From Parcubacteria group bacterium (GTDB lineage: Bacteria; Patescibacteriota; Minisyncoccia; Moranbacterales; UBA2206), in contig JBAYWF010000003.1 in assembly GCA_041674205.1 (NCBI GenBank), positions 47,221 to 111,220 of the forward strand: DNA of 64,000 bases, written 5' to 3'. Below the pieces are notes generated by a model that saw only the letters and a program-made list of their open reading frames with translations, was not told where the DNA came from and did not search any database. Both the position numbers and the translations under genes were made by a program. Below are positions 30,008 to 54,382 of this stretch, piece after piece; the first letter of the stretch is position 1; each line of letters starts with the position of its first letter.

Positions 30008-30118
30008 ATAGTCTCCATCTTAGCCTAGAATCGGAGAATAATCAAGGATTTGGGACAAGCGGATCGGAATAATCTTTAAAGCTTAACTTCCCTGCGCATA
30101 TTACGGTTTTTTTATCTT

Positions 30119-31219: not shown

Positions 31220-31257
31220 ATATGAATATCATTAAAAAAAATAATCGTTTTTGTATT

Positions 31258-31695
31258 TTAGTTGTTAGCATTTGCCAGATAATCGCCTATGATTATTTTA
31301 TGATCAAACGCAAGTTCGTCCGGCAAGCCATCCAGCGGAAACCATTCGTATCCAAGGGCGTCATCACCGGCTTTTGGACTGCCTGAAATTGTCACAGCAT
31401 ATGCCATATCTATGACTTGTTTGGGATGCCTATTCGGTTTGCCGTAAACCCCGATAAGCTTGATCGACTCGACTGCGACGCCTAATTCCTCTTTGACTTC
31501 CCTTATGACGGATTCCTCCGTCGATTCATCCCATTCCACATATCCGCCAGGCAAAGCCCAAAAACCTTTGAACGGATTCGCGCCTCTCTTGATAAATAAA
31601 ATCCTATCATCTTTTATGATGACCGCGTCAATCGAAACGCCTCGATTGTTGAAGCGACCGCATTCAGGACATTGTTCATCGTTTGATAATTCCAT
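31258..31695 (-). CDS. Nudix hydrolase with N-terminal CxxC zinc ribbon
   Basis: CPECGRF ... GFWALPGGYVEWDESTEESVIREVKEELGV Nudix box. Confidence 0.85.
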   Translation of the reverse strand: MELSNDEQCPECGRFNNRGVSIDAVIIKDDRILFIKRGANPFKGFWALPGGYVEWDESTEESVIREVKEELGVAVESIKLIGVYGKPNRHPKQVIDMAYAVTISGSPKAGDDALGYEWFPLDGLPDELAFDHKIIIGDYLANANN

Positions 31696-31726
31696 TTTGT
31701 TTAAATAAAAATTATAGATTCGCAGA

Positions 31727-31987
31727 TCACAGAAACCAGTAATTGATGATGCCGAACGTGGTTATAATGGTAAAAATAATCGTCGTAATCAAAATCCCGA
31801 TTTGCCCGGCTTGTTTCCAGGCCTTCCATGATGAATATAGCCAAAACGGCTGGGCAAGCAAATTCATTATTAATCCATATTCCGGAAATTTTAACGAAGT
31901 CGCTATTTGCGCGCCGATAGTCAATCCGGGAAGGGCGAATTGGGCGACCTTATTGAATAATTTTCCTTTTGTTGCCGCTTCGTTCAT
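31727..31987 (-). CDS. small hypothetical membrane protein
   Basis: two TM helices; start moved to MNEAATKG (31987) because an attC-like L'/R' motif occupies the upstream part of the longer ORF. Confidence 0.4.
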   Translation of the reverse strand: MNEAATKGKLFNKVAQFALPGLTIGAQIATSLKFPEYGLIMNLLAQPFWLYSSWKAWKQAGQIGILITTIIFTIITTFGIINYWFL

Positions 31988-32157
31988 AAAATTTTTTAAA
32001 AATATTTTGTCTGACGCATCTGCATATCTGAAGTTTAATCCCGACTTTATCACCCAAATCTTAACATGATTAGGGACGCTTGTTAATAGACTGATTTGGA
32101 ATATTCACCAGGCTACGGGATTAAATTCAGGTGGAGCCATTAAGAATTTTAGCTTTT

Positions 32158-32570
32158 TTATATTTCGTTTTCTATGTTTCTAAAATAATTTTTTGCCTCC
32201 AACAATGATAAATTTTCTACCATATTTGATTTATTGACCCATTTAGCTTTAACGATGTCTTTAGCCGTAGGATGGATATGTTCTTGCTCGGATTTGAAAA
32301 GAAACATATAAGTATCGATAATGACCGGATTATCGTTAGCTGCTCGTCTCTTGTAGTTGGGCAATGTTTTTATCAAGGTCAGCTTTTTAATTCCTGCTTC
32401 TTCATAAATTTCCCGTTTCGCCGCATCAATGATATCTTCACCTTTTTCAATGCCTCCTTTTGGAAATCCCAAGCATCAACATCTTTCATTAAAACTAAAA
32501 CGACTTGATTTTTATTATTTACAACTATTCCTCCAGCACTATCAATTATTTTATAGTCGGTTTCATTCAT
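32158..32570 (-). pseudogene. Nudix hydrolase interrupted by a -1 frameshift in a G-run
   Basis: ORFs 32379-32570 and 32158-32472 together encode ...VLVLMKDVDAW | GFPKGGIEKGEDIIDAAKREIYEEAGIK; restoring one G in the GGG run at about 32468-32470 gives a contiguous Nudix box. Confidence 0.7.
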
Positions 32571-32707
32571 AGAGATTGATAAAAATTTGGGTGAAAGAAA
32601 TTTATCCTCTTGATTATTATTTCCCGAAAGCGAAAAAAAGTTTAGATCAAGATGGATTCCTATAACCGCGTATACAGGTGTTATGCGCTGTCGTAATTTT
32701 TTTCGTG

Positions 32708-33157
32708 TTAAAGCAGCCCCTCATTGATTAACTGGAATGATGATTTGCCGGTATGCTTTTTCGTAATCACCTCGCCTGGGTTTTTCAAAATGTCTTTTAT
32801 ACGATCGACTTGTTTTGGTGAAGTATTGCGTGGGATGTCCTTAAAGGCAAAATATTTTATTTTATCAGCCTCTGGATTCAGAACGATTTCTCCGCCGATG
32901 ACTTTGCAGATGTATTGGAACACAATCTCATCCTTATCTGGCTTGCTGTATACGCCTGTTAGCCGCTCAACAACCGTGTTGAATCCAGTCTCTTCTTTTA
33001 CCTCTCGAACGACGCATTCCCAAGGTGTCTCACCATGTTCAAGGGTGCCTCCGGGGAGATTCCACAAATCGCAATCAGTCCTATGGCAAAATAAAATACG
33101 GTTTTCATCGTCGAATATAGCCGCGAATACGCCAATTGTGAAAGTCGGTTTGGACAT
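32708..33157 (-). CDS. Nudix hydrolase
   Basis: WNLPGGTLEHGETPWECVVREVKEETGF Nudix box. Confidence 0.85.
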   Translation of the reverse strand: MSKPTFTIGVFAAIFDDENRILFCHRTDCDLWNLPGGTLEHGETPWECVVREVKEETGFNTVVERLTGVYSKPDKDEIVFQYICKVIGGEIVLNPEADKIKYFAFKDIPRNTSPKQVDRIKDILKNPGEVITKKHTGKSSFQLINEGLL

Positions 33158-33190
33158 TGTTTATTAGATAAAAAATTACGATCACATACA

Positions 33191-33340
33191 ACGTATGCGC
33201 ATCATCCGAAGTTGCACCATGGATTATTGATTAAATTTGTTAATATCGCTTTACTTGATTATATCACTAAACTTGCCATTTCGTCAGCGCAATTTGAGAG
33301 AAGAAATTTTGCACTCCTTGAAATATAATTACGCAAAATT
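33191..33340 (-). repeat. conserved about 150-bp intergenic module (copy 1), shared with 39503-39651; carries a promoter-like TGACGA-18-TATAAT on the minus strand
   Basis: about 85-90% identity to the 39503-39651 copy over GAAGTTGC.C..TGGATTA.TTGATTA.TTTGTTAATATCGCTTTACTTGATTATATCACTAAACTTGCC.TTTCGTCAGCGCAATTTG. Confidence 0.8.
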
Positions 33341-33403
33341 CCTGACTCGTCGTAACTATCATTAAATCGAAATCTGGACGTAGCCTAATAAGCTGTTTTG
33401 TAA

Positions 33404-34024
33404 CTATTTATTTTTGGCGATTAAAAAAATAATTCCCGTGTTTACATATTCTTGTATGGGATTTTCTTCAAGGACAAAATCCAGTATCTCAAATTTATGC
33501 TCAGAAAGCATGTCTTTTATTTCTTTTTCGCAGTAGTAAGAATAGAATTTTTTTGCGTTATCATATCTGTCGTCCGTGATTACTTTTTCGCCACTGCCTT
33601 TTTTTAAATTTATATATAATACGCCACTGGCTTTAAGCACCCTTTTCATTTCCTTCAGTGCTTTTAAGGCATCAACTTTATTCAGATGCAATAATGTGGC
33701 GCTGCACCAGACGCCATCGAACGATTTGTTCTTAAAATTTAAATCTAACATATTCATCACATGGAACTTGGCATCTGGGACGGATGATCGGGCTTTATCG
33801 ATCATTTTTTGAGAAAGGTCGATTCCAGTCGTAACGTATTTGTTAGAAGCAAAAAAATCCGTATCGCGACCAAAGGCGCAACCGATATCCAAAACGCTTC
33901 CATTTTTAGGCAGATACGAAATGAATTTGTCGAGCCAATCTTTGTTTTGCAAGTTCGTCGTGTTTTTAATGTATTCGTCGACATTTTGATCGTAGAAATT
34001 AATAGTATTTTTAATATAATCCAT
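33404..34024 (-). CDS. class I SAM-dependent methyltransferase
   Basis: motif I VLDIGCAFGRD and methyltransferase type-11 spacing. Confidence 0.85.
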   Translation of the reverse strand: MDYIKNTINFYDQNVDEYIKNTTNLQNKDWLDKFISYLPKNGSVLDIGCAFGRDTDFFASNKYVTTGIDLSQKMIDKARSSVPDAKFHVMNMLDLNFKNKSFDGVWCSATLLHLNKVDALKALKEMKRVLKASGVLYINLKKGSGEKVITDDRYDNAKKFYSYYCEKEIKDMLSEHKFEILDFVLEENPIQEYVNTGIIFLIAKNK

Positions 34025-34393
34025 AGATAATTACAAAAAGTTTATTGAGCGGAACCAGATATGCGGCGTTATGCGATGTGGCAAAAGCCGACTCCGATAA
34101 GAAAAAATTGGAAGATTGATTAAAAGTCGGGCTCTCTCTTCAAGTTTTTGCTACTTCTTTATTATATATCAACAGAAGAAAAGGGCAAAAATTCGGGTAA
34201 AAAATGAAATTCAAGTCCAGAAAATACAAGAGGGAATTTCATTTTTTCCTCATATTCGGTGTTGTGCGATGTAAATTTTTTATCTCAATATTTATTGAAC
34301 TAAACTCTGTTTTATTACTAAGAAAATTTGATTTTTGTTTTGGATTTTGGGCAGATGGGTCAGGGGTGAATGCCCAAAATTCAAAACTCCTTA

Positions 34394-35026
34394 TTAAGTT
34401 TTGTTCATCAATCTCAATATTTCCTTTGGGTTATTTGCCACCCTTGTATTACCAACCATACTTTTATCAAGTCCCCAGCCATAATCTACTAATATAATAT
34501 TATCATCATTTATACCAGCTTTTTTTGAAACTTCGTAATCAATAGCTCTATCGCCTATGGATACGATTTCATCTGATGAATAGTTATTCTCTTGTATCAA
34601 ACCTATCATCATATCGCTCTTGCGGGTTTTTTGGTCTGCTCCGCAATAAATTTTTTCGAATAAAATTGTTAGGCCAAATTTTTCTATTTTAGGCAGAATT
34701 TCATTACTATGGGAAGCAGACACCAGATATAATTTATATTTTGTAGCAAGCTCCTTTATCACATTTTCTATATCCTCAAAAACACCATGCTCCATTTTGA
34801 CAATTTCTCTTAAATAAATAGAATTGGCTTCTTCAAAATCTTTCTCTTGGATGCCTAAATTTTTCAAACACTCTTTGTAATTATAGCCATAAACAACCCT
34901 AAATTCTTCCAATGTTTTTGGGCAAGAAACTTTGAAGCGCCTACAAATCATTTTATAAACTTCAAAGACGCTCACAAAAGAGTCTATTATCACACCGTCA
35001 TAATCAAATATAATCGCTTTTATCAT
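34394..35026 (-). CDS. HAD-IA family hydrolase (phosphatase)
   Basis: MIKAIIFDYDGVIIDS motif I DxD, motif II S/T, C-terminal GDRAIDYEVSKKAGI motif IV. Confidence 0.85.
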   Translation of the reverse strand: MIKAIIFDYDGVIIDSFVSVFEVYKMICRRFKVSCPKTLEEFRVVYGYNYKECLKNLGIQEKDFEEANSIYLREIVKMEHGVFEDIENVIKELATKYKLYLVSASHSNEILPKIEKFGLTILFEKIYCGADQKTRKSDMMIGLIQENNYSSDEIVSIGDRAIDYEVSKKAGINDDNIILVDYGWGLDKSMVGNTRVANNPKEILRLMNKT

Positions 35027-35167
35027 AAAAAATACAAATTAAATAGTTTACGTAGCCTCAGCGGAGAAAACACCTTTTCCCCCTCTATAAATAAATTAAA
35101 AATCAAATTTTCTGTCCTTAATTAAATCACAAATCTAAAAATTACCACCAAGATAAAAAAATTATTT

Positions 35168-35244
35168 CGCCGAACGTTTCGCAATATCCGACGTTCGCCT
35201 TAGCGAATGTGGCTTTAGCCCTTGCGGATATTGAGTGTTAGCTG
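35168..35244 (-). repeat. attC-like palindromic site (R'' CAGCTAAC - AC - L'' TCAATATCCGC ... L' GCGAATATCCGAC-like ... R' GTTCGGCG)
   Basis: 9-bp L''/L' complementarity CAATATCCG/CGGATATTG, inner palindrome CGAACGT/ACGTTCG; lies between the IMPase-3 and HAD cassettes. Confidence 0.55.
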
Positions 35245-35329
35245 ATGTATTAAAAATTCTTTTCGCTTTTGTCGTTAGACAAAAGATTTAATTGGGGCAA
35301 ATTTATTTTTTTAATCCTTCCGCTGTGTT

Positions 35330-36157
35330 TTATTTCTTTACAATTCCCAACAACTGCTTAACAATTTTAGCGTTACCTGCAACATAATCTCCTTCATAAA
35401 CATCGCATTCTTTTCCGTCTAAATTAGTCATTATCGCACCGGCTTCAGCGGCAATAAGGCTGCCGGCTGCAACATCCCATGGTTTTTGTTTCAATCTGAT
35501 TAAACCGTCAATTCGACCGCATGCCAAATAACAAAACTCGGCAGCCATTCCACCTTTTCCAAATGTTTCATCAACAATGTGGGTGCTGTCGTAAAATCCA
35601 AAATATTTAACATTGGGAATTGAATTCATTATTCTTTTATCAAGTCCACCAATTTCATCATCTTCACTTCCAGGATAAGTTGAGTAAGTTATAATTGCTT
35701 TTGATAAATCATAGGCTTTGCTTGTGTGTATAGGTTCATTGTTTAAGGTTGCGCCCTTTCCTTTCTCAGCAACAAACATTTCATCTGTTTTTGGTAAATA
35801 GATGACTCCCAAAATAATTTCGCCTTTATATTCTAGCCCAATGGACACCGAAAAAGTATTTCGCTTAGCAATGTAGTTATTTGTACCATCAATTGGATCA
35901 ATAATCCATTTATATTCTGAAATTAACACACTTTTACCTAGTTCTTCACCTAAAAAAGCATGCTTGGGAAAAGATACTTTAATTATTTCAACAATTTTTT
36001 GTTCTGATGCTCTGTCTATTTTTGTTGTCGGATTAGCATGTACGTCATATTGAATTTCGTCAGATTTTACATTGTCAATATTTTCCATCAAAAATCTTCC
36101 AGCTTCTTTGGCTGCTTTTATTGCGGTTTGTCTGAGATTGTTTTCGTTGTTTGTCAT
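35330..36157 (-). CDS. inositol monophosphatase family protein (third, divergent paralog)
   Basis: WIIDPIDGTNNYIAKRNTFSVSIGL metal-binding motif; 275 aa. Confidence 0.85.
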   Translation of the reverse strand: MTNNENNLRQTAIKAAKEAGRFLMENIDNVKSDEIQYDVHANPTTKIDRASEQKIVEIIKVSFPKHAFLGEELGKSVLISEYKWIIDPIDGTNNYIAKRNTFSVSIGLEYKGEIILGVIYLPKTDEMFVAEKGKGATLNNEPIHTSKAYDLSKAIITYSTYPGSEDDEIGGLDKRIMNSIPNVKYFGFYDSTHIVDETFGKGGMAAEFCYLACGRIDGLIRLKQKPWDVAAGSLIAAEAGAIMTNLDGKECDVYEGDYVAGNAKIVKQLLGIVKK

Positions 36158-36228
36158 GGCCTTGGATTAAAAAAATAAATTTGCCTAGATTGAATGCCCG
36201 CTAAGGCCGAAAATAATTTTTTAATATT

Positions 36229-36357
36229 TCAGCTAACGTATCCAAATATCTGAAGTTTGCTGGAGTGTAACGAAAGCAAATTTGGGAGAGAAAATTTTTC
36301 TTACCTTTGAAATTTAAAAGTGAAAAATTTTTGAACCAGATATTTGGTGTTGTCTGA
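36229..36357 (-). repeat. attC-like site (R'' CAGACAAC - AC - L'' CCAAATATCTG - 78-nt centre - L' CAGATATTTGG - ATAC - R' GTTAGCTG)
   Basis: perfect 11-bp L''/L' inverted repeat about 85 nt apart; R boxes fit RYYYAAC/GTTRRRY loosely; stop codon of upstream Nudix 12 nt before R''. Confidence 0.65.
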
Positions 36358-36386
36358 TGTTTTGTCTGCCGTCGTTTTTAAAATCA

Positions 36387-36833
36387 CTAAGCCGCCCAGC
36401 CGAACTCGCCATAATGCACATTCTTGTTAATATTCTCTAGGGCAAGTTTTACTTCTGGTAAAATGTTGTTCGGAAGACCGTCCATATTATACCATTTAAG
36501 CTCGTCACATTTATCAAGTTCCATATTGGTAATATTACCAGCCCATTTTTCAGTACGAAGATAAATATCAAAATATTCGCGATCAGATGCTAATCGATGC
36601 ATAACATGAACCACCTCGAGGTCTTCCGGACTTACCTTAATCCCAGCTTCTTCACTGGCTTCTCGGATAATGCATTGTTTCGTTGTTTCACCACCATCAA
36701 GATGTCCTGCCACCAAGCTATAATTGCCGTCTTGATAGCCAGTGTTGAAGCGTCTGAGAAGTAAAACTTGCCCGTCCTTAATCAGCACAAGGTAGGCGGC
36801 GACGTATGGTTTAAATCTTTCTTTATCAGACAT
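36387..36833 (-). CDS. Nudix hydrolase
   Basis: GNYSLVAGHLDGGETTKQCIIREASEEAGIK Nudix box. Confidence 0.85.
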   Translation of the reverse strand: MSDKERFKPYVAAYLVLIKDGQVLLLRRFNTGYQDGNYSLVAGHLDGGETTKQCIIREASEEAGIKVSPEDLEVVHVMHRLASDREYFDIYLRTEKWAGNITNMELDKCDELKWYNMDGLPNNILPEVKLALENINKNVHYGEFGWAA

Positions 36834-36869
36834 AGTAATGTTGGATTATTAATTAGGCTGACAAAATTT

Positions 36870-37094
36870 CAGATAACGATTAAGAATATCTGAAGTCCTG
36901 CGCTTTTGCTTCTATGCACAAAATCTTAAATATTCCTGACATTTTGTTAATTTTATTATACCCCAAATTACAGCAAAACTGAAAAGCGCGGGATCTGCCT
37001 GCCTGCCTGCCGGTAGGCAGGGGAGAGAAAAATCTATCCCCCTTTTAGTTTTAATTGTGGTAAATTTTTAGAACCTCATATTTGGTGTTCTGCG
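36870..37094 (-). repeat. attC-like site (degenerate; R'' CGCAGAAC ... R' GTTATCTG) with internal GC hairpin CCTGCC/GGCAGG
   Basis: same ACATC-R''-AC-L'' ... L'-spacer-R'-AAA layout as neighbouring sites but weaker L pairing. Confidence 0.45.
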
Positions 37095-37102
37095 ATGTTT
37101 AA

Positions 37103-37624
37103 TTAAGCGGCTTTTAACAACCGCAACATTTTTGTAGGCCATTCAGTATTGCCCCGTTCTATTTCTTCGTGGAAAAATTTTATCATGAGCTGTTTTGGCT
37201 CGTCGGAAAAATCACAATGCTCAATTTCAGGCCAAACTTCTTTATACCACAATCCAATATTGTCATGGCGTAAATTGCACGCACCGCCGTTTGGATCGCG
37301 TTCAATAAACAAAATCCGATTTATATGGTTAGTGACTGAAGCACCAAGACACTGGATGCAAGGCTCAAGCGTACTGTAAAGAGAAATAGCCTTACCATGC
37401 TTCCAAGCTTCACTCAAAAGCTGACTATTTTTTATTATCAAACTATTTTCAGCATGATTGACGAAGGATTTTTGTTTATTGATTTCGTTGCCAGCAGTGT
37501 CAACGATTTTTTCATCAATAGCCAAAACAGCACCCACGGGATAATTGCCAGCCTTGTAAGTTTCACGGGCAATACTGATGGCCGCCTCAAAACATTGTTT
37601 ATCAAATAGACTTAATTCTTTCAT
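37103..37624 (-). CDS. CMP/dCMP-type zinc deaminase family protein
   Basis: HAENSLI (HxE) and TLEPCIQC (PCxxC) zinc-binding motifs of the cytidine/deoxycytidylate deaminase fold. Confidence 0.75.
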   Translation of the reverse strand: MKELSLFDKQCFEAAISIARETYKAGNYPVGAVLAIDEKIVDTAGNEINKQKSFVNHAENSLIIKNSQLLSEAWKHGKAISLYSTLEPCIQCLGASVTNHINRILFIERDPNGGACNLRHDNIGLWYKEVWPEIEHCDFSDEPKQLMIKFFHEEIERGNTEWPTKMLRLLKAA

Positions 37625-37691
37625 GAGATGTAGCTTAATTCAATTTCACTTAACGTTTAGGAATATCAGAAGTTTTTGGCTCTCTTTATTA

Positions 37692-38297
37692 TTATTTGGG
37701 ACACTTTTCGTAGAATACCTTAAAACTTTTTTCTTCGCCATATTTCGTACTCATGCCATTGAGCAATTTTTGAAGGTCTATATCGAAAAATTTTCTATGC
37801 GAATAAGCAGGGTCGCCAAGCGTAACAACAACATTTTTATTTTTTACAGTGACAGAATCTACCACGCAGCTATGGCCATAATTGACCCCGCTTCCAGGTT
37901 TAGCGTAAGCAGCCATGTTAAACGAAACAATAATGTCATTACCAGCTTTTAAGTTTTCGCATAGAAAATTTTTTATGTCGCCTATCTTCGAAGGGTAATG
38001 ACGCTCAACAGCCAGAGATATTTTATGCTTCTTCAAAAATTGCGGTATTTTATAGACCCACGTGCCATAGCCAAGTCTGTCTTGCGGCAGTTTTCCCGCA
38101 ACTTTCATTTTTATATTGAACAATCGTTGATCTTCTGGGGCAATAACAACGCCCAAATCTTTGGCCATTTCATCCTGCGAAATCAAATTCAACCCGCGGC
38201 GCAACATTACCCATTGAATACAGCAAGGCAAGCAACAATATTTTTGCTGGGTAAGCGGGATATAACTTGGCATTATGCGGACTTTATTTGTTGTCAT
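37692..38297 (-). CDS. putative papain-fold cysteine peptidase (C39-like)
   Basis: candidate catalytic Cys in LTQQKYCCLPCCIQWV (Gln upstream as oxyanion residue) and His in NYGHSCVVDSV, resembling the C39 HFVVL motif; weak. Confidence 0.35.
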   Translation of the reverse strand: MTTNKVRIMPSYIPLTQQKYCCLPCCIQWVMLRRGLNLISQDEMAKDLGVVIAPEDQRLFNIKMKVAGKLPQDRLGYGTWVYKIPQFLKKHKISLAVERHYPSKIGDIKNFLCENLKAGNDIIVSFNMAAYAKPGSGVNYGHSCVVDSVTVKNKNVVVTLGDPAYSHRKFFDIDLQKLLNGMSTKYGEEKSFKVFYEKCPK

Positions 38298-38394
38298 AAA
38301 ATTCCCTGGATAATAATTTCAAAATCTGAAGCGTGCAGCATTTTAATGGGACGTAGTGGGATCAGATTACCATATCCTGCGATACAAGCCTATT

Positions 38395-38799
38395 TTAACT
38401 CTCAACTTCTCGCAGGAACTCTTTTAGAGGTTCTACTATGTCGGTCAAATCGACATATTCAATGATTTTATCAGCGACCCCCTTGGCAGTGTCCCGAAGC
38501 TGGACCCCTTTATTGATTATTATGATGATCTTTTTGCCGGCACCAAAGGCGATTCCCGCCTCAAGAGCCCGTCCGGTAGATGAGGTTGATAGGTCGATCA
38601 ATAAAGCATCGCACTCAAGGACTTCTTCCTTGGCGCGATCCATCAATTCCCGTGGATCATAAAACATCTTTTGATAATTTTCAACGTCACGGATAAAACA
38701 AAAGTCATCGAACCCGGCTTCTTTTACCAAGTTGCACAAGTTTTCTATTTCGGATTTATTTTCACCCTCTTTGAAGGGGGCGGTGATAAAAATTTTCAT
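38395..38799 (-). CDS. nucleoside 2-deoxyribosyltransferase-like (PF05014/DUF4406-type Rossmann) protein
   Basis: N-terminal KIFITAPF (cf. KIYLAGPF) and C-terminal DALLIDLSTSSTGRALEAGIAFGAGKKII with the conserved Glu. Confidence 0.6.
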   Translation of the reverse strand: MKIFITAPFKEGENKSEIENLCNLVKEAGFDDFCFIRDVENYQKMFYDPRELMDRAKEEVLECDALLIDLSTSSTGRALEAGIAFGAGKKIIIIINKGVQLRDTAKGVADKIIEYVDLTDIVEPLKEFLREVES

Positions 38800-38827
38800 A
38801 GCGAGAGAGTTAAAAATAGACTTATTT

Positions 38828-38916
38828 CACATAACGTTTCTCGATATCCGACGTTTCAATGAAGTGAAACGAATTGAAATGTGGCTTTAGTCCTCGCGGA
38901 TATTGAGTGTTAGATG
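38828..38916 (-). repeat. attC-like site (R'' CATCTAAC with embedded TAA stop - AC - L'' TCAATATCCGCG ... inner hairpin CGTTTCA/TGAAACG ... L' CGGATATCGA - GAAAC - R' GTTATGTG)
   Basis: R'' is a perfect RYYYAAC; L''/L' 9-bp complementarity; stop codon of Nudix 38910-39488 lies inside R''. Confidence 0.65.
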
Positions 38917-39461
38917 ATGTTTTTGTGTGACACTATTCCACTTAGATATAATAACAATGGCATCAGAGAAGTGCCATCACTAATCTCATTATTAGCGATC
39001 AGTTCTTTTACTTCACTTAATGAAAGCCAATGGATTTCCTTGACTTCGTCTGTGTCGATTTCGGCCTGCTCGCCAGTTTCAACATTACCTAAAATTATGT
39101 GAACATTTTGATTCGACATTCCGTTCGAAGGATTGTAAGAGTAAAGAAGTTTTAATGCCCTCGCTTTAAAACCAACTTCCTCCATTACTTCTCGTTCAGC
39201 GGCTAATAAAATATCTTCACCATTTTCAACGCCACCAGCAGGCAATTCCCATTCAATCTTTTGCGTGGTATAGCGCAAAGACTTGATAAAACAAATTTCG
39301 CTTTTGGCGTTTAGCAATAATACGGCTATTGACTCCTTCGGGTAATCAAGTTGATGATATTTTTCTATAATTTTTCCAGAAGGCATTAAAACTTTGTCGA
39401 TATATAGATTTATCCATTGGCTTTCATAGATTGGTTTTCGATCTAATCGTTTTGGTAGCAT
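38910..39461 (-). CDS. Nudix hydrolase (ADP-ribose pyrophosphatase-like)
   Basis: WELPAGGVENGEDILLAAEREVMEEVGFK Nudix box; start set to ATG MLPKRL (39461); longer ORF begins with GTG at 39488. Confidence 0.85.
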   Translation of the reverse strand: MLPKRLDRKPIYESQWINLYIDKVLMPSGKIIEKYHQLDYPKESIAVLLLNAKSEICFIKSLRYTTQKIEWELPAGGVENGEDILLAAEREVMEEVGFKARALKLLYSYNPSNGMSNQNVHIILGNVETGEQAEIDTDEVKEIHWLSLSEVKELIANNEISDGTSLMPLLLYLSGIVSHKNII

Positions 39462-39496
39462 ATATTTATAATTTAGAGAGTGTCGCACAAAAATTT

Positions 39497-39681
39497 CATC
39501 TAACGTATCGGCACATGCGAAGTTGCGCCGTGGATTAATTGATTATTTTGTTAATATCGCTTTACTTGATTATATCACTAAACTTGCCGTTTCGTCAGCG
39601 CAATTTGGGTTAAAAAAAATTTGCATTCCTTATAAAATCTAATTGCGCAAATTTTTTGAACCGCATGTGCCGTGTTATCGG
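39497..39681 (-). repeat. attC-like site containing the conserved promoter module (R'' CCGATAAC - AC - L'' GGCACATGCG ... L' CGCATGTGCC - GATAC - R' GTTAGATG)
   Basis: perfect 10-bp L''/L' complementarity with a sequence unlike the L boxes of other sites (covariation); R' is a perfect GTTRRRY. Confidence 0.65.
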
Positions 39682-39708
39682 ATGTAAAATTTTTTTAATT
39701 CACTTTTA

Positions 39709-40515
39709 TCAAATAGATTGGGATTTAACAACCTCCAATAACTTTGCATGCAGGGCTGGAGACGACGCAAGAAAGGTGAAATTGTCTTGTGGTTGAGAAA
39801 GGGCATTTGAATAATCAATCGTATTTCCGAAAAAATCTGTATAAATTCCGCCCGCTTCCTCAATAATTATCTGCTGGGCAACATTATCCCATATTTTGCT
39901 CGTGCGATTTAAAAAAGCACCATAATTTCCTTTGGCTACCATAGCAATATCAAAAACACTATTACTGCTTCTTAAGTTTCTAATATTCAAAACTATTTCA
40001 GCTAGCAGCGCACACTCATCTCTTGTAAACTTCGGATTTTCTTGGTGACCATCAATTCCATACGCTACAAGCGCTTTTTTCAAATCGCCTTCTTTGGTAA
40101 TGCAGATTTTTTCGGAATTACAATATGCTCCTTGCCCTTTCTCGGCCACATAAATTTCGGAAAAGTTTGGCAAAGCTAGTCCACCAGCAATCGGAACATT
40201 ATTTTTTAACAATCCAAGCATTATCCCGTACAGCGGCGTTCCGTTGGCGAAGTTGCTAGTGCCGTCAATTGGATCAATGACCCATGTAAAAACTGACTTT
40301 TTATCAATCACTCCAGCTTCCTCATCAATGATGTTATGCTCCGGAAATTTGGCTTGGATTTTTCCAATCAATAATTTACCGATTTCTAAGTCAGTTTCCG
40401 TAAGTACCTGATTATTATCATCTTCCTTGGTGATGCCAGCAACTTTGCCAAAACTTTTTCTTGCAACGTCAGAAGCTTCTTTCAGAGATTGAGTAATGAA
40501 ATCCTTGTATTCCAT
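39709..40515 (-). CDS. inositol monophosphatase family protein, cassette-borne paralog of 20545-21366
   Basis: WVIDPIDGTSNFANGTPLYGIMLGL; lower GC than the core copy; flanked by 35-bp inverted repeats 39672-39708 / 40521-40556. Confidence 0.9.
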   Translation of the reverse strand: MEYKDFITQSLKEASDVARKSFGKVAGITKEDDNNQVLTETDLEIGKLLIGKIQAKFPEHNIIDEEAGVIDKKSVFTWVIDPIDGTSNFANGTPLYGIMLGLLKNNVPIAGGLALPNFSEIYVAEKGQGAYCNSEKICITKEGDLKKALVAYGIDGHQENPKFTRDECALLAEIVLNIRNLRSSNSVFDIAMVAKGNYGAFLNRTSKIWDNVAQQIIIEEAGGIYTDFFGNTIDYSNALSQPQDNFTFLASSPALHAKLLEVVKSQSI

Positions 40516-40548
40516 AATGTTAAAAAAGTGAATTAAAAAAATTTTATT

Positions 40549-40633
40549 TCCGATAACTCGTTTATGCGCGAAATTTGTTTCGTATAATGCTCGATAATTT
40601 GTTTGTTATGCTAAATTATTGCGCGTTATCCGG
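40549..40633 (-). repeat. attC/attI-like boundary site between murJ and first cassette (CCGGATAAC ... GTTATCGG)
   Basis: R''-like CCGGATAAC-GC-GCAATAATTT and R' GAGTTATCGG separated by about 70 nt, immediately after the murJ stop. Confidence 0.4.
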
Positions 40634-40689
40634 ATTTATTTTAATCCCTAAAACTTGCCTGCCGCTTTTTTCTAGAGTATGTACATCTG

Positions 40690-42339
40690 TCACATCCGAC
40701 TCACTTCATCCGTGCTTTCTAAAATGACTTTATTGCCTTTGAATATCTTGCGGGTCAGGGAATTTCTGAACAAGACGTATTCTTCCAGCTTCAAGAAATG
40801 GCTGATGCCGGTAAAAATCACGAATCCCAGGGCCAGCGGAACGGTCAATTGGGTGAAAACTCCCAAAAAAGTATCCAAATCGACCACCGAAGCGACCGCG
40901 TATTTCGCGCCTTGTATCCCGAGGCCGGCCGCGAAGGAAGCGAAAGCGATTTTCGATACCGACAGGATGATGTTTTTATCATCCAAACTCTCGAAGCGAG
41001 CGCGCAAGAAAAAAAGTAACAGCATCATCTGCACCACGTTGGCCAAAGAAAACGCGATCGCCAAACCGACGATCTGGACGCGGCCGATGAGCATTATGAC
41101 CGCCAGGATATTCACGGCCTCCGTAGCGATGGCGATATAGAAAGGGGTCTTGGTGTCTTGCAAGGCATAGAACGAACGGGCCAGGAGCTGCACCGCGCTT
41201 TGCGCGAACAGGCTGAGCGCCAAGATGCCCAAACATTGGAAGGTCAGGATCGTATCGTTCCAATCGAATTTTCCGGCTCCCAACACGACCCGCACGATCT
41301 GCGCCCGCAAGACGACCATAAACACACTGAGTGGGATGACGAAAAACATTATCTGGCGGAAAGTTTCCGAAAAAGCCCTTATGAAATTTTCCTTCTCGTC
41401 ACGCGCGGCATACGTTGACAAGACGGGAAAAACCGCGATAGCGAAAGATATCCCGAACACGCTGAGCGGCACGCTGGCCAAGTTTTGGGAAAAATTGAAC
41501 ACCGCCAAACTGCCGGCGGCCAGCGTCGAAGCGAAGACCGTGATCACCATCAGATTGAACTGGTTGATCGCGATGCCGGTCATCCGCGGCAGCATCAGGG
41601 TGAAAACCTTGCGCACATTCCGGTTTTGCCAGGCCGCCGCCAATCCCCATCGGTGGACATAGCCCAATTTCCGCACCGTCGTATATTGCAGGACCATATG
41701 CATCAAGGCGCCGAAGACCACGCCCCACGCCAGCCCGATCGGCCCCATCAGCCGGACAAACACGGTGATGCCCAGAATGATGCCGATATTATACAGGAGC
41801 GGCGCGATCGAATACACTAGAAAATGTTTCATCGAAGTCAGGACACCACCCATAATCCCGCTGACACCCAATAAAATCGGGCTTAAGAACATTATCCTGG
41901 TAAACAGGACCGCGCTTTCCATCTTTTCCGGGGAAAAACCCGGAGTGATGATCCGCATCAAAAGCGGCGCGGCGATCGCACAGGCCAGCGAAATGATGAT
42001 GATTAAAAACAAAGACAGGTTCATAATCCCGTTGGTCAGCCGCCAAGCTTCGTCATTATCCCCGTCCTTGCTTCGCAATCCGGTGAAAACCGGAATGAAA
42101 GCGGCGCTCATCGAACCCAGGATAAGCAAGCTATAAATCAGATCCGGAATCCGGAAGGCCGCATAATAGACATCCAGCGTGTCCCCCGCTCCGAAATTCG
42201 AAGCCAGCAGGCGATCGCGCACAAGCCCGAGCAGATTGCTCACAAGGCCCGCGACCGTGATTACGAAAGCCGCCGAAATGACCGATTCGGTCGGCCGGGA
42301 TTTCAATATGAAATTAGCTTTGAAAATTTTATCCATCAT
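40690..42339 (-). CDS. murJ: lipid II flippase MurJ (MviN)
   Basis: 549 aa, 14 TM; N-terminal SAAFVITVAGLVSNLLGLVRDRLLASNFGAGDTLDVYYAAFRIPDLIYSLLILGSMSAAFIPVF is canonical MurJ. Confidence 0.9.
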   Translation of the reverse strand: MMDKIFKANFILKSRPTESVISAAFVITVAGLVSNLLGLVRDRLLASNFGAGDTLDVYYAAFRIPDLIYSLLILGSMSAAFIPVFTGLRSKDGDNDEAWRLTNGIMNLSLFLIIIISLACAIAAPLLMRIITPGFSPEKMESAVLFTRIMFLSPILLGVSGIMGGVLTSMKHFLVYSIAPLLYNIGIILGITVFVRLMGPIGLAWGVVFGALMHMVLQYTTVRKLGYVHRWGLAAAWQNRNVRKVFTLMLPRMTGIAINQFNLMVITVFASTLAAGSLAVFNFSQNLASVPLSVFGISFAIAVFPVLSTYAARDEKENFIRAFSETFRQIMFFVIPLSVFMVVLRAQIVRVVLGAGKFDWNDTILTFQCLGILALSLFAQSAVQLLARSFYALQDTKTPFYIAIATEAVNILAVIMLIGRVQIVGLAIAFSLANVVQMMLLLFFLRARFESLDDKNIILSVSKIAFASFAAGLGIQGAKYAVASVVDLDTFLGVFTQLTVPLALGFVIFTGISHFLKLEEYVLFRNSLTRKIFKGNKVILESTDEVSRM

Positions 42340-48906: not shown

Positions 48907-48970
48907 ATTTGTTGAATTCGTCGCGATCGACTTTTTCCGAGAGCCGGTGTTTGATTTCAATAACTTCATC

Positions 48971-49156
48971 TTAAACCCGTGAAGGCCTTCTGTTGACTTC
49001 GGCTAGTTTCAATTTCATTCCGCCGATAACTTCCAATATCAAATCGACCTTTTCTGTCAGGCCGGCACATTGCTCGATAGCGATCGCGCCTTGGCTTTTT
49101 ATCTCCTCAAACATCGCCAAGATATGATCTTCCGGATAATTTTTCTTACTTTTCAT
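48971..49156 (-). CDS. small hypothetical protein
   Basis: 61-aa ORF between the GT4 and histidine-kinase genes; no motif. Confidence 0.3.
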   Translation of the reverse strand: MKSKKNYPEDHILAMFEEIKSQGAIAIEQCAGLTEKVDLILEVIGGMKLKLAEVNRRPSRV

Positions 49157-49285
49157 GTTTTTTATTCCTATCTCTCAGCGATTTTCATGAATCAATTATA
49201 CTTCTTTCAAATTTCGATGTCAATCAGCCAAAAAACCCGGAAAAAATTCCGGGTCCGGTCCGGTTTTTCCATTCCGGCAAGCGGA

Positions 49286-51127: not shown

Positions 51128-51169
51128 TTATATTTTTACCTTTAAATAATTAAGTTTCAAATTATTATA

Positions 51170-51667: not shown

Positions 51668-51671
51668 ATTA

Positions 51672-52454: not shown

Positions 52455-52575
52455 AATTTTACCCTTAAGATTTTCCGCTTTTTATGATTCCATTATACCA
52501 CAAACCCCCGGAATTGATAAAAGACACCGCGACCCGCGCGATGCCTTTTTTTTGTTGCCATATATATATGAGCTC

Positions 52576-53484: not shown

Positions 53485-53540
53485 TTTTCCTCCTCGAATC
53501 AATTCTGATTTGATTTTTTGTCATATCCGCTACATAGCCA

Positions 53541-54350: not shown

Positions 54351-54382
54351 TTCTTTCGTCTCCTTCTTTGAATCGATTGATT

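What the first reader, a model, noticed from the sequence alone, without database searches (positions are those of the whole stretch)
31990..40690. Integron-like gene-cassette array with attC-like covarying palindromes; no integrase in view
From about 32 kb to 40.7 kb, about 12 small genes, all on the minus strand, are separated by 70-300-bp intergenic elements that share one architecture. Read in the direction of transcription, each element runs: stop codon, ACATC, an R'' box of the form NNNNTAAC, a 2-nt spacer AC, a 10-12-nt L'' box, a variable centre of 30-170 nt, the L' box, a spacer ATAC or GAAAC, an R' box GTTANNTG, AAA, and then the next ORF.

The L''/L' pairs are perfectly complementary within a site but differ between sites. 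Examples are CCAAATATCTG/CAGATATTTGG at 36229-36357, GGCACATGCG/CGCATGTGCC at 39497-39681, and CAATATCCG/CGGATATTG at 38828-38916 and 35168-35244. This covariation means secondary structure is being conserved, not primary sequence.

The R boxes approximate the integron 1L/1R cores RYYYAAC/GTTRRRY. CATCTAAC, GTTAGATG and GTTAAGT fit them perfectly. The stop codon is embedded in R'' at 38910.

These properties are the defining ones of integron attC sites, and the low-GC island lies inside a 52%-GC backbone. No tyrosine recombinase is present in the window. The array abuts murJ on its promoter-proximal side, so it looks like a CALIN (cluster of attC sites lacking an integrase) or an array whose intI lies elsewhere. 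Integron-type cassette arrays are essentially undescribed in small-genome CPR-like bacteria.
Basis: partly seen in the sequence, partly recalled or inferred. Interest (0 to 1): 0.9.

Follow-up and report, generated by a model that had tools for sequence, protein, structure and literature searches.

The report
Integron-like cassette array in Patescibacteria
A 10.6-kb island in a Candidatus Moraniibacteriota (CPR) genome is an array of mobile gene cassettes built like an integron, from a family common in CPR metagenomes whose recombinase lacks the extra domain thought necessary for integron-type recombination.

Summary
Window 30035-40684 is a low-GC island inserted between murJ and lepA; five related genomes have murJ directly next to lepA. 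On the minus strand it carries small genes separated by elements of one design: ACAT-R''-AC-L''...L'-GAWAC-R'-AAAT.

Across 117 metagenomic copies the L arms covary strongly. R'' of each site complements R' of the preceding site, not its own, in 52 of 91 consecutive pairs against about 6 by chance. That is the footprint of cassettes that circularise by a crossover at or near G|TT. Homologous ORFs travel with their downstream hairpin.

In 18 metagenomic loci and 4 independent further contexts, a ~270-aa tyrosine recombinase lies divergently next to such arrays, behind a double-stranded attI-type site. The window's first "attC" is this attI-type site. The recombinase gene itself is missing from the 64 kb.

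The recombinase resembles VchIntIA and archaeal XerA about equally and lacks the IntI-specific I2 domain. The sites differ in geometry from class 1 attC sites, and a home-made class 1 attC model does not detect them.

Verdict: an integrase-less, partly decayed array of an apparently undescribed, I2-less integron variant. No paper in the searchable library reports integrons in Patescibacteria.

The parts
30035..40684 (-). Whole island: attI-type site plus cassette array and decayed distal part, inserted between the murJ stop codon and the lepA promoter.
   Evidence: L001 and L002 (about 87% nt identity in the flanks) and L003-L005 have murJ directly followed by lepA. Junctions are ...GGATGTGACAGA|TGTACAT and ...GTCCCAAATCC|TTGATTATTC. 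GC is 0.32-0.41 in the island against 0.49-0.54 in the flanks.
40546..40575 (-). attI-type double-stranded site AATTTCGCGCATAAACGA|GTTATCGG|AAAT. The presumed crossover is at G(40557)|TT.
   Evidence: It matches the consensus NANTTCGYATAWAAACNA-GTTRNNNG-AAAT that lies 60-130 bp upstream of the recombinase gene in more than 15 loci; L066 has AAGTTCGCATATAAACGAGTTATCGGAAAT. Its right arm complements the R'' of site B 8/8.
40605..40617 (-). Upstream direct-repeat-like copy of the attI left arm (AATTTAGCATAAC).
   Evidence: A second copy (AAGTTCGYATAAY) sits about 40 nt upstream of the attI core in L066, L093, L111, L132, L133, L148 and L150. Read directly from the sequence.
39504..40556 (-). Cassette 1: inositol-monophosphatase-family gene (39709-40515) plus site B (39493-39685, 193 nt; its last 11 nt belong to cassette 2).
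   Evidence: Pfam Inositol_P, 2.6e-49. R'' CCGATAAC is the reverse complement of the attI R' GTTATCGG. L'' GGCACATGCG and L' CGCATGTGCC pair perfectly. The same cassette is 83% identical in L006, and homology starts at R'.
38835..39503 (-). Cassette 2: NUDIX gene (38910-39488) plus site C (38824-38920, 97 nt).
   Evidence: Pfam NUDIX, 1.2e-18. R'' CATCTAAC is the reverse complement of B's R' GTTAGATG (8/8). CPR site model R1 scores 52.7 bits, E = 2.9e-11.
37654..38834 (-). Two-ORF segment: a nucleoside-2-deoxyribosyltransferase-like gene (38395-38799) and a C39-like gene (37692-38297). It ends in the 3' half-site D (37643-37674) and has no R''/L''.
   Evidence: Weak Pfam hits, both below the curated cut-offs. 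The half-site AACTTCTGATATTCCTAAACGTTAAGTGAAAT was found by regex.
36877..37653 (-). Cassette with a cytidine/dCMP deaminase gene (37103-37624) plus chimeric site E (5' half 37071-37098, 3' half 36866-36897).
   Evidence: Pfam dCMP_cyt_deam_1, 6.4e-15. The L arms of the two halves match at only about 6 of 10 positions (sequence). The fold shows no L stem.
36237..36876 (-). Cassette: NUDIX gene (36387-36833) plus site F (36226-36360, 135 nt).
   Evidence: R'' CAGACAAC against E's R' GTTATCTG matches 7/8. The L arms pair perfectly. ORF plus site F are homologous to L069 and L088 up to the end of R'+AAAT.
35175..36236 (-). Cassette: second inositol-monophosphatase-family gene (35330-36157) plus site G (35164-35248, 85 nt).
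   Evidence: Pfam Inositol_P, 9.4e-57. R'' CAGCTAAC is the reverse complement of F's R' GTTAGCTG (8/8). R1 scores 56.5 bits, E = 3e-12.
33192..35174 (-). Composite segment: HAD hydrolase gene (34394-35026), 5' half-sites H1 (34248-34272) and H2 (34052-34079), SAM methyltransferase gene (33404-34024), and 3' half-site H' (33181-33213).
   Evidence: Pfam HAD_2, 1.4e-26, and Methyltransf_25, 3.7e-21. Half-sites found by regex. H2's L'' matches H's L' at only 7 of 11 positions.
32571..33191 (-). NUDIX gene (32708-33157) followed by 5' half-site I (32664-32691).
   Evidence: Pfam NUDIX, 9.9e-21. Half-site read from the sequence.
30035..32570 (-). Decayed distal part without intact sites: NUDIX gene 32158-32570 (frameshifted here), degenerate 3' half J (32004-32035), 108-aa membrane ORF (31727-32053), NUDIX gene (31258-31695), PEP-utilizer-domain gene (30119-31219).
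   Evidence: Pfam hits. The 108-aa ORF is a site-flanked cassette in L126, 77% identical. The whole stretch is absent from the empty-site relatives.
39547..39607 (-). 61-nt promoter-like module inside site B (CTGACG-18-TATAAT with an extended -10 TG). It is repeated at 33236-33296 inside the H' element.
   Evidence: Both score 10 of 12 hexamer positions. The two copies are near-identical. Function is inferred only.

Best explanation
Window 30035-40684 is the integrase-less remnant of an integron-like cassette platform of a kind that is common in Patescibacteria (CPR).

Composition. The platform has a double-stranded attI-type site and a co-oriented array of cassettes. Each cassette is usually one ORF followed by an imperfect palindrome: ACAT-R''(8)-AC-L''(10-12)-centre(30-170 nt)-L'(10-12)-GAWAC-R'(8)-AAAT.

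Proposed mechanism. A ~270-aa tyrosine recombinase related to IntI and to archaeal XerA, but lacking the IntI I2 additional domain, excises cassettes as circles. It does so by recombining two R' boxes at or next to G|TT, and it inserts cassettes at the attI-type site. In intact platforms its gene lies divergently next to that site. The palindrome most likely acts as a folded single strand that rebuilds a two-arm core site, probably on the bottom strand as in integrons.

State of the window copy. The attI-type site and about 7-10 cassettes remain, encoding IMPase x2, NUDIX x5, a deaminase, HAD, a methyltransferase and others. The recombinase gene is gone and half of the sites are truncated or chimeric. 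The array can now move only through a recombinase supplied in trans, if at all.

Shown versus inferred:
- Shown: site architecture and covariation, cassette-wise complementarity of the R boxes, cassette boundaries, presence or absence of the island, and the linkage of recombinase, attI and array in related loci.
- Inferred: catalysis by that recombinase, the single-stranded substrate and strand choice, and the exact cleavage position.
For: 1. Architecture and specificity. Motifs are confined to the island and to one strand.

2. Covariation. In 117 unique copies picked by a pattern that did not demand pairing, L''/L' form 9.07 of 10 Watson-Crick pairs, against 5.81 +/- 0.13 with shuffled partners. 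There are 54 distinct L'' sequences. Nine of 10 L pairs show compensatory changes; 0 of 500 shuffles reach the observed score.

3. Cassette signature. R''(n) is the reverse complement of R'(n-1) at all 5 variable positions in 52 of 91 consecutive pairs. Random pairing gives a mean of 5.8 and a maximum of 16 in 2000 permutations. Within a single site the figure is 25 of 205. In the window the matches are 8/8, 8/8, 7/8 and 8/8.

4. Boundaries. Of 18 alignments of shared ORFs, 11 carry the complete downstream hairpin and stop 12-16 nt after the G of R'. None carries the upstream hairpin.

5. Mobility. Relatives have an exact empty site. The IMPase cassette recurs in L006 in another array.

6. Platform. 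A conserved recombinase lies in 18 of 118 pattern-hit loci (10 of the 27 loci of at least 8 kb) and was divergent from the site-bearing strand in all 13 checked by hand. Four independent contexts chosen through the protein alone also show the attI-type site. The attI right arm complements the first R'' 8/8 in 10 of 18 cases and 7/8 in 3 more.

7. Recombinase. It carries the catalytic motifs. Its best PDB match is VchIntIA (E = 9.5e-46) in two stretches that skip residues 203-240, followed by XerA at 4e-45. TIGR02249 matches in two stretches below its cut-off, and NF040815 scores around its cut-off. It is 32% identical to IntI1, with a 51-position gap that spans the I2 region.

8. Fold. The bottom strand is more stable than the top strand in 120 of 120 sites, by 3.2 kcal/mol on average.

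9. Cassette properties resemble those of integrons: median 750 nt, 89% co-oriented ORFs, diverse and mostly unannotated proteins.
Against: - Nothing here is experimental. No recombination product, such as a circular junction, was observed.
- The window, plus 9 kb beyond its left end, holds no recombinase, so activity at this locus is unproven.
- Half of the window's sites are incomplete.
- A class 1-derived attC covariance model finds none of the sites, and the CPR model finds no class 1 attC.
- No extrahelical-base bulge occurs in the first 10 bp of the L stem. The surplus unpaired bases lie on the ' arm (2-nt against 5-nt spacer), whereas canonical attC sites carry them on the '' arm.
- The recombinase lacks I2, which published work treats as the device that makes single-strand attC recombination possible and safe (PMC7790495).
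- R''/R' complementarity across the ORF is symmetric. On its own it does not say which box is cut; that rests on the boundary analysis.
- Some long sites contain promoter-like modules and a conserved CCCAAAT motif that have no counterpart in integrons.
Confidence: 0.8

Rival explanations
1. Canonical integron remnant (CALIN). The sites are ordinary attC sites served by a genuine IntI with the I2 domain, encoded elsewhere in the genome. The ~270-aa recombinase next to related arrays is incidental.
For: The overall attC-like layout holds: R/L boxes, AAC...GTT, and the ORF-attC cassette order. CALINs are common in bacteria (PMC9024848). The rest of the 318-kb contig could not be searched.
Against: No I2-bearing integrase lies in any of the roughly 125 loci with such sites. 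The only recombinases found are the ~270-aa family and one Xer-like gene. The ~270-aa gene sits in a fixed divergent position behind an attI-type site whose right arm pairs with the first cassette. The class 1-derived attC model fails on 553 kb that hold more than 200 sites.
Confidence: 0.07
2. Xer/dif hijacking (IMEX-like). The ~270-aa enzyme is the cell's single Xer-type chromosome-dimer resolvase and the adjacent site is its dif. The cassettes are hairpin-forming IMEX-like elements that pile up at dif, as CTX phage does at dif1.
For: The attI-type site resembles dif: TTCGCATATAA against the XerC arm GGTGCGCATAA, and TTATGTGAAAT against the XerD arm TTATGTTAAAT (dif sequence from memory; site). 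The recombinase is as close to XerA as to IntI and lacks I2. In XerS and XerH systems the site lies next to the gene (own knowledge). The family is very large and highly conserved.
Against: In L132 the platform lies about 6 kb from dnaA, not at a terminus. The window shows no GC-skew turn across 64 kb. L093 also encodes an ordinary XerC/D-like protein. The right arm of the site varies freely at 4 positions and tracks the first cassette, which is integron-like behaviour. This rival differs from the best explanation mainly in what else the enzyme does, not in how the array is built.
Confidence: 0.1
3. pdif-type modules. Each half-element is an independent double-stranded Xer-like site, and genes move as modules flanked by inverted sites, as in Acinetobacter plasmids. 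No hairpin is involved.
For: Half-sites alternate in orientation. Inner arms travel with the module. One ORF (the methyltransferase, 33404-34024) lies between a 5' half and a 3' half.
Against: The 5' half has only about 3 nt between its arms, against 6 in the 3' half. That is too short for a double-stranded tyrosine-recombinase core, so it can only supply complementary strands. The L arms are perfect complements only 30-170 nt apart in 76 of 117 copies. Homologous ORFs carry the whole downstream palindrome and nothing upstream. Direct, not inverted, R' boxes bound the cassettes.
Confidence: 0.02
4. Lineage-specific intergenic repeats, such as a terminator/promoter pair or REP/MITE-like elements, that spread with local gene duplication and involve no site-specific recombination.
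For: Some centres contain promoter-like sequences. The array holds many NUDIX and IMPase paralogues.
Against: The motifs are absent from the other 53 kb of the window, including all housekeeping intergenic regions. Cassette-wise R-box complementarity, precise cassette boundaries, the empty site and the recombinase linkage have no explanation under this model. Terminator-like and promoter-like counts do not exceed shuffles.
Confidence: 0.01

Closest known systems
Integrons (IntI + attI + attC cassette arrays; sedentary chromosomal integrons such as the Vibrio cholerae superintegron, and class 1 mobile integrons)
   Same: - A divergent tyrosine-recombinase gene, an adjacent double-stranded attI with extra upstream repeat copies, and a co-oriented array of mostly one-ORF cassettes, each ending in an imperfect palindrome with R and L boxes.
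- ...AAC and GTT... cores, with the cassette boundary at or near G|TT, so that the rest of each R' belongs to the next cassette.
- Structure is conserved, not sequence.
- Cassette proteins are diverse and mostly of unknown function.
- Chromosomal site sets are fairly homogeneous, as with VCRs.
   Different: - The recombinase is about 65 aa shorter and lacks the I2 additional domain.
- The spacers are 2 nt (R''-L'') and 5 nt (L'-R'), not about 5 and 5-6.
- There is no bulged base in the L stem.
- The ACAT and AAAT flanks are conserved.
- The centre carries a conserved CCCAAAT motif and sometimes a promoter-like module.
- The two kinds of site are not detected by each other's home-made covariance models.
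- The host phylum is Patescibacteria.
CALIN (cluster of attC sites lacking an integrase; IntegronFinder terminology)
   Same: The window holds at least 4 complete sites and several half-sites with no recombinase within 64 kb. Partial decay fits the view of CALINs as degraded integrons (PMC9024848).
   Different: An attI-type site is still present at the head of the array. The sites are not canonical attC sites.
CTX phage and other IMEX elements exploiting Xer at dif
   Same: A folded single-stranded hairpin that mimics a two-arm Xer-type core would be recombined by an I2-less Xer-like enzyme with a double-stranded chromosomal site. Elements can stack in tandem.
   Different: Here the units are single promoter-poor genes rather than phages or islands. 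They form long arrays, carry R boxes matched to their own cassette, and sit beside a dedicated recombinase gene that in at least one genome is near dnaA, not at the terminus.
Archaeal XerA/dif and single-recombinase Xer systems (XerS/difSL, XerH/difH)
   Same: The recombinase has the size and end-to-end alignment of XerA (4a8e, E = 4e-45; NF040815 at about its cut-off). The target site lies next to the gene.
   Different: Those systems resolve chromosome dimers at one site. No cassette arrays or hairpin partner sites are known for them.
pdif modules of Acinetobacter plasmids
   Same: Genes are bracketed by Xer-like half-sites whose inner arms move with the gene.
   Different: pdif sites are complete 28-bp double-stranded sites in inverted pairs kilobases apart. 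Here the two halves form one short palindrome, and one half lacks a full central region.

Membership tests
Integron (sensu Messier & Roy 2001; Cury et al. 2016) | An integrase of the tyrosine-recombinase family carrying the IntI-specific additional domain (I2 helix, around patch III). | tested here: not met
   The window has no recombinase at all. The recombinase linked to the same sites elsewhere aligns to VchIntIA in two blocks that skip residues 203-240 and to IntI1 with a 51-position gap spanning the I2 region. TIGR02249 scores 188-251 bits against a cut-off of 265. NF011946 scores 119-171 bits against a cut-off of 435.
Integron | attC sites: imperfect palindromes with R''/R' (RYYYAAC/GTTRRRY) and L''/L' boxes, conserved in structure rather than sequence. 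| tested here: met
   R'' consensus is CRNMYAAC and R' is GTTRKNYG. The L helix is 92.7% paired, 9 of 10 pairs show compensatory changes, and there are 54 distinct L'' sequences.
Integron | Canonical attC geometry: spacers of about 5 nt on both sides and extrahelical bases on the '' arm of the L box. | tested here: not met
   The spacers are 2 nt (AC/AG/AA) and 5 nt (GAWAC). The first 10 L pairs have no bulge. The surplus bases are on the ' arm. Compare the 12 class 1 attC sites extracted.
Integron | Detection by an attC covariance model. | tested here: inconclusive
   IntegronFinder's own model is not available here. A substitute built from 12 class 1 attC sites (R2) finds canonical sites, including a held-out lnu(F) attC at E = 8e-7. 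It finds nothing at the window's sites or in 553 kb of CPR loci. R2 loses sensitivity above about 72 nt, and the CPR sites are at least 85 nt long.
Integron | Cassette equals ORF plus downstream attC, bounded by crossovers in R' (G|TT), so that R'' matches the R' at the start of the same cassette. | tested here: met
   52 of 91 pairs are perfect cassette-wise, against 5.8 expected. Homology blocks include the downstream hairpin and end at R'. The resolution is a few nucleotides around G|TT.
Integron | An attI site next to a divergently transcribed integrase gene, serving as the insertion point of the newest cassette. | tested here: met
   In related loci the attI-type site lies 60-130 bp from the recombinase start. 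The gene was divergent from the site-bearing strand in all 13 pattern-hit loci checked by hand, and the further contexts show the same layout. The right arm matches the first cassette's R'' 8/8 in 10 of 18 cases. The window has the site but not the gene.
Integron | Recombination of attC as a folded bottom strand with a single strand exchange. | not testable with these tools
   Only indirect hints are available. The bottom strand is more stable in 120 of 120 sites. The 5-nt spacer plus C gives a full-length central region only on the bottom strand's 5' arm.
CALIN | At least 2 attC sites clustered with no integron integrase nearby. | tested here: met
   Four complete attC-like sites and at least 7 half-sites lie in 8 kb. 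No recombinase lies in the 64 kb or in 9 kb beyond. This is conditional on accepting the sites as attC-like.
Xer/dif chromosome-dimer resolution system or IMEX | The recombination site lies at the replication terminus, and the recombinase is the cell's dimer resolvase. | tested here: not met
   The L132 platform is about 6 kb from dnaA. Cumulative GC skew falls steadily across the window. L093 has an additional XerC/D-like gene. The evidence comes from few genomes, so it is suggestive, not final.
pdif modules | Complete 28-bp XerC/XerD sites (11-6-11) in inverted orientation flanking each module. | tested here: not met
   The 5' half-sites have only about 3 nt between their arms. The two halves form a 55-360-nt palindrome. 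Cassettes are bounded by directly repeated R' boxes.

The most novel reading that the evidence does not exclude
Patescibacteria harbour a widespread, distinct lineage of integron-type gene-capture platforms. Its recombinase handles hairpin (attC-like) cassette sites without the I2 additional domain.

Two origins are possible. It may be a surviving pre-I2 stage, the Xer-like ancestor recombining single-stranded elements that Escudero et al. postulated (PMC7790495). Or it may be an independent solution in which the asymmetric 2/5-nt spacer and the fixed ACAT/AAAT mismatches replace extrahelical bases as the structural landmarks.

Either way, integron-like cassette capture would extend to ultra-small episymbiotic bacteria. 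It would also escape current integron finders, which require the IntI-specific domain.
Probability: 0.55. Interest if true: 0.92.

Novelty: new variant of a known kind. Interest (0 to 1): 0.86.

Why it matters
Integron integrases are defined by the I2 additional domain. Published work attributes single-stranded attC recombination, and avoidance of a lethal second strand exchange, to that domain.

Here the system has every organisational hallmark of an integron, but its recombinase lacks I2 and its sites lack the canonical bulges. That makes the origin of integrons from Xer-like enzymes directly testable with natural proteins and sites.

It also points to a route of gene gain and loss in CPR bacteria, whose tiny genomes are usually discussed in terms of reduction. 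A 10.6-kb block of nucleotide-housecleaning genes (NUDIX, IMPase, deaminase, HAD) is present in one strain and absent from its 87%-identical relatives.

In practice, integron surveys that rely on the IntI-specific profile, and possibly on canonical attC models, would miss the complete platforms of this family. At least 118 metagenomic stretches match one narrow site pattern, and more than 7,000 proteins match the recombinase at E <= 1e-30; that protein count is not specific to this family.

Tried and rejected
- Rfam at gathering and E <= 10 thresholds gave nothing relevant in the island. I do not know whether Rfam holds an attC family, so this is uninformative.
- Exact-protein look-ups of MurJ, the 314-aa EamA protein and cassette-1 IMPase failed. 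MatE and LepA succeeded and identified the source contig.
- I first read element A as an attC with bulged L arms. I dropped that once the attI consensus appeared.
- I considered a mirror model with the crossover in R'' and the hairpin upstream of its ORF, because R-box complementarity is symmetric and the surplus bases lie on the ' arm. The cassette-boundary analysis rejected it.
- CPR model R1 cannot bridge long centres, so sites B and F score only as halves.
- The class 1-derived attC model is weak for long sites, so its negative result is soft.
- The Cury et al. supplement with attC alignments is not held.
- A loose regex for the first R'' gave false hits inside genes and was replaced by a strict one.
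- Promoter-like and terminator-like scans do not exceed shuffles overall.
- I made no structure prediction of the recombinase, because the sequence alignments to 2a3v, 4a8e and IntI1 already locate the missing segment.

Full report
**What is in the window.** Between 30 and 41 kb all sizeable ORFs lie on the minus strand, and GC drops to 0.32-0.41 from 0.49-0.54 in the flanks. In order after murJ (40690-42339), Pfam gives the following:
- an inositol-monophosphatase-family gene
- NUDIX
- a weak nucleoside-deoxyribosyltransferase-like ORF
- a weak C39-like ORF
- a cytidine/dCMP deaminase
- NUDIX
- a second IMPase
- a HAD hydrolase
- a SAM methyltransferase
- NUDIX
- a frameshifted NUDIX
- a 108-aa ORF
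- NUDIX
- a PEP-utilizer-domain protein
- lepA (28211-30007)

ACATCNNNNAAC[AG]C occurs 8 times in 64 kb, 7 of them in the array and all on one strand. A full-site pattern matches 3 times against 0 in 100 shuffles.

Complete sites are B (39493-39685), C (38824-38920), F (36226-36360) and G (35164-35248). D is a 3' half only. E has 5' and 3' halves that do not pair. H1, H2 and I are 5' halves. H' and J are 3' halves. Rfam gave nothing relevant.

**The island is an insertion.** MurJ relatives identify the organism as Candidatus Moraniibacteriota, a CPR/Parcubacteria lineage. In the two closest genomes (L001 and L002, about 87% nt identity in the flanks) and in L003-L005, murJ is followed directly by lepA. 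Window 30035-40684 is therefore one 10.6-kb insertion with exact junctions. It is larger than the finding's range.

Two more distant relatives, L006 and L007, carry arrays of the same elements next to murJ in the opposite orientation. Both arrays run into contig ends. L006 holds the window's first cassette gene at 83% nt identity, and homology starts at the R' box while the upstream hairpin differs.

The window is 100% and 99.995% identical to ENA contig k141_432123 (318 kb, sample ERZ27247358).

**Cassette signature.** In the window the 8-nt R'' of each site is the reverse complement of the R' of the preceding site, across the ORF, rather than of its own R':
- A to B, 8/8
- B to C, 8/8
- E to F, 7/8
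- F to G, 8/8

This is expected if cassettes circularise by a crossover inside R', so that the bases after G|TT belong to the next cassette.

To test it at scale I scanned public metagenomes with a strict site pattern. A structure-based scan of all loci found 281 sites against 26 in shuffled sequence. The consensus is ACAT | CRNMYAAC | A[C/G/A] | [C/G]GNATAT[C/G][C/T]G ... complement | [G/C][A/G][A/T]AC | GTTRKNYG | AAAT, with a median length of 115 nt.

Over 91 consecutive site pairs, R''(n) matched the reverse complement of R'(n-1) at all five variable positions in 52 cases. Random pairing gave a mean of 5.8 and a maximum of 16 in 2000 permutations. Within single sites the figure was 25 of 205.

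**Structure conservation.** The scan pattern did not require L''/L' pairing, so its 117 unique hits make an unbiased sample. They form 9.07 of 10 Watson-Crick pairs, against 5.81 +/- 0.13 with shuffled partners. Seventy-six are perfect, there are 54 distinct L'' sequences, and all four pair types occur at several positions.

On a 60-sequence ungapped alignment the L helix is 92.7% paired, with compensatory changes at 9 of 10 pairs, and no shuffle or slid register comes close. The inner R positions are mostly unpaired within a site, as the cassette-wise rule predicts.

A covariance model built from these 60 non-window sites finds G (56.5 bits, E = 3e-12) and C (52.7 bits, E = 2.9e-11). It finds halves of F and B, and nothing else in the 64 kb.

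**Which side of the ORF owns the hairpin.** R-box complementarity across the ORF is symmetric, so I compared homologous ORFs in different loci. Of 18 alignments covering an inter-site ORF, 11 include the whole downstream hairpin and end 12-16 nt after the G of R'. None includes the upstream hairpin, and the alignments start 1-20 nt before the upstream R'.

Cassettes are therefore ORF plus downstream site, bounded at or within a few nucleotides of G|TT, as in integrons. Across 88 cassettes the median length is 750 nt, 78 have the longest ORF co-oriented with the site, and the median coding fraction is 0.82. Seventy-five cassette proteins hit 33 Pfam families (NUDIX x3, Ham1, a DNA methylase, GNAT, APH, MBL, glyoxalase and others), and most have no hit.

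**The recombinase and the attI-type site.** A box-II regex found a conserved ~270-aa tyrosine recombinase ([27 protein letters not shown]...IKSPL) in 18 of the 118 loci, which is 10 of the 27 loci of at least 8 kb. It was on the strand opposite the sites, transcribed away from them, in all 13 loci I checked by hand.

Between the gene and the first cassette lies a double-stranded site, NANTTCGYATAWAAACNA-GTTRNNNG-AAAT. An upstream extra copy of its left arm is often present.

Four contexts reached through the protein alone (L132, L133, L148, L150) show the same site. In L132 the platform lies about 6 kb from dnaA.

The right arm of this site is the exact complement of the first downstream R'' in 10 of 18 loci, and matches 7/8 in 3 more. 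It therefore behaves as the insertion point.

The window's element A (40546-40575, AATTTCGCGCATAAACGAGTTATCGGAAAT, with an extra copy at 40605-40617) is this attI-type site. The recombinase gene that should precede it is missing, because the murJ stop codon lies only about 115 nt upstream. tblastn with the CPR recombinase, IntI1 and a Xer-like protein finds nothing in the window or in 9 kb beyond its left end.

**What kind of recombinase.**
- NCBIfam: the best matches are NF040815 ('site-specific tyrosine recombinase/integron integrase', XerA type; 217-250 bits, cut-off 220) and TIGR02249 (integron integrase; 188-251 bits in two stretches, cut-off 265). XerC and XerD models score lower.
- PDB: VchIntIA (2a3v) is best at E = 9.5e-46, but in two blocks that skip its residues 203-240. 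Pyrococcus XerA (4a8e) follows at 4e-45 in a single block, and XerD scores 4e-23.
- IntI1: 32% identity, with 51 gap positions that span the I2 additional-domain region. Y220 lies within I2 according to PMC7790495.
- Family size: more than 7,700 proteins match at E <= 1e-30 (the scoring cap was 8,000 candidates). The top 120 are 75-91% identical and about 270 aa long, and sources label them generically as Patescibacteria or Parcubacteria recombinases.

**How the sites differ from canonical attC.** I extracted 12 class 1 attC sites from plasmids.
- Canonical sites have about 5 nt between R'' and L'', a bulged base in L'', and 5-6 nt between L' and R'.
- The CPR sites have 2 nt and 5 nt, no bulge in the first 10 L pairs, fixed ACAT/AAAT flanks that give two mismatches at the end of the R stem, and a possible TT bulge beyond the L stem.
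- A strand-specific CCCAAAT motif occurs in the centre of 99 of 190 CPR sites, against about 3 expected.

A covariance model of the 12 class 1 sites finds canonical attC sites, including a held-out lnu(F) site. It finds nothing at CPR sites in the window or in 553 kb of loci. The CPR model finds no canonical attC. This negative result is soft, because the substitute model weakens above about 72 nt.

With DNA folding parameters, the strand complementary to the coding strand is more stable in 120 of 120 sites, by 3.2 kcal/mol on average. Only that strand carries a full 6-nt stretch between the arms. Both points fit bottom-strand recombination but do not prove it.

**Rivals.**
- A canonical integron with a true IntI elsewhere cannot be excluded for this genome. 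It is contradicted by the constant linkage of the I2-less enzyme and its attI-type site with such arrays.
- A Xer/dif reading (IMEX-like stacking at dif) is supported by the dif-like look of the attI-type site and by the XerA-like enzyme. Against it stand the platform near dnaA in L132, the steadily falling GC skew across the window and a separate Xer-like gene in L093. It would change what else the enzyme does, not how the array is built.
- pdif-type double-stranded modules fail because the central region of the 5' half is too short and because of the cassette boundaries.
- A terminator/promoter repeat fails because the motifs are confined to the island and because of the recombination signatures.

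**Novelty.** Seven full-text searches found no paper on integrons or integron-like platforms in Patescibacteria or CPR. The hits only use IntegronFinder on resistome contigs. Published work defines integron integrases by the additional domain and attributes single-strand attC recombination to the acquisition of I2. It proposes an Xer-like ancestor hijacked by single-stranded elements (PMC7790495; PMC9668308). The system found here fits that hypothetical stage, or is a parallel invention.

I file it as a new variant of a known kind. It works like an integron, but membership in the strict sense fails on the integrase criterion and on site geometry.

**For the window itself.** The array is an integrase-less, partly scrambled copy. 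It is enriched in nucleotide-housecleaning enzymes, and close relatives lack it entirely.

Noticed in passing
window 48908-60795 (to 63134 relative to L001): A second strain-variable, low-GC region is absent from L002, and a larger span is absent from L001. It holds a histidine kinase, a SET-domain protein, several unknown ORFs, two plus-strand NUDIX genes and an AbiEii toxin. It has no CPR-type recombination sites.
   Followed up: partly
window 32158-32570: This NUDIX gene is frameshifted in the window but intact (137 aa) in the otherwise identical ENA contig k141_432123. That is the single 1-nt gap in 21.8 kb, so it is either an assembly error or a population variant.
   Followed up: partly
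window 39547-39607 and 33236-33296 (minus strand): A near-identical 61-nt module sits inside two different long sites. It has a strong promoter-like match: CTGACG, 18 nt, TATAAT with an extended -10 TG. Both copies lie upstream of NUDIX genes. This suggests that some cassettes bring their own promoter.
   Followed up: partly
centres of CPR sites in L014-L131; window sites B, F, H', I; island right end at 30035-30045: A strand-specific motif, (CA)CCCAAATT, occurs in 99 of 190 site centres against about 3 expected. The window island ends right after GTCCCAAATCC. Its function is unknown, and canonical attC sites have no counterpart.
   Followed up: partly
window 40678-40690: The left junction reads murJ-TGA-CAGA|TGTACAT. 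The reverse complement, ATGTACA, could be the first 7 nt of a deleted, convergent recombinase gene. This is speculative.
   Followed up: no
L006:11650-14889 and L007:11700-12571: Related genomes carry arrays of the same site family next to the murJ 3' end, but convergent with murJ, and both arrays are cut by contig ends. The murJ-lepA gap may be a recurrent or ancestral location, and arrays appear to break assemblies.
   Followed up: partly
L087:3380-3560: In this locus the recombinase gene is preceded by an attC-type hairpin (ACATCGCACAAC...GCATTAGGCGAAAT) instead of the usual attI-type site.
   Followed up: no
L132:6192-9200: The array next to this recombinase includes an HNH endonuclease gene and a Y1 (IS200/IS605-type) transposase gene, that is, other mobile elements nested in the array.
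   Followed up: no
window 20545-21366, 8045-8512 and the island: The genome carries many paralogues of NUDIX and inositol-monophosphatase genes. The island holds 5 NUDIX and 2 IMPase genes. The second variable region holds 2 more NUDIX genes. The backbone holds an IMPase at 20545-21366 and a NUDIX gene at about 8045-8512 (seen in L152). Accessory nucleotide-sanitising enzymes seem to be favoured cargo.
   Followed up: partly
L010-L013: Contigs encoding MurJ relatives at 38-57% identity, in CPR-like gene contexts, are labelled Gammaproteobacteria, Bathyarchaeia or Bdellovibrionales in their MAG records. These are probably binning or labelling errors.
   Followed up: no
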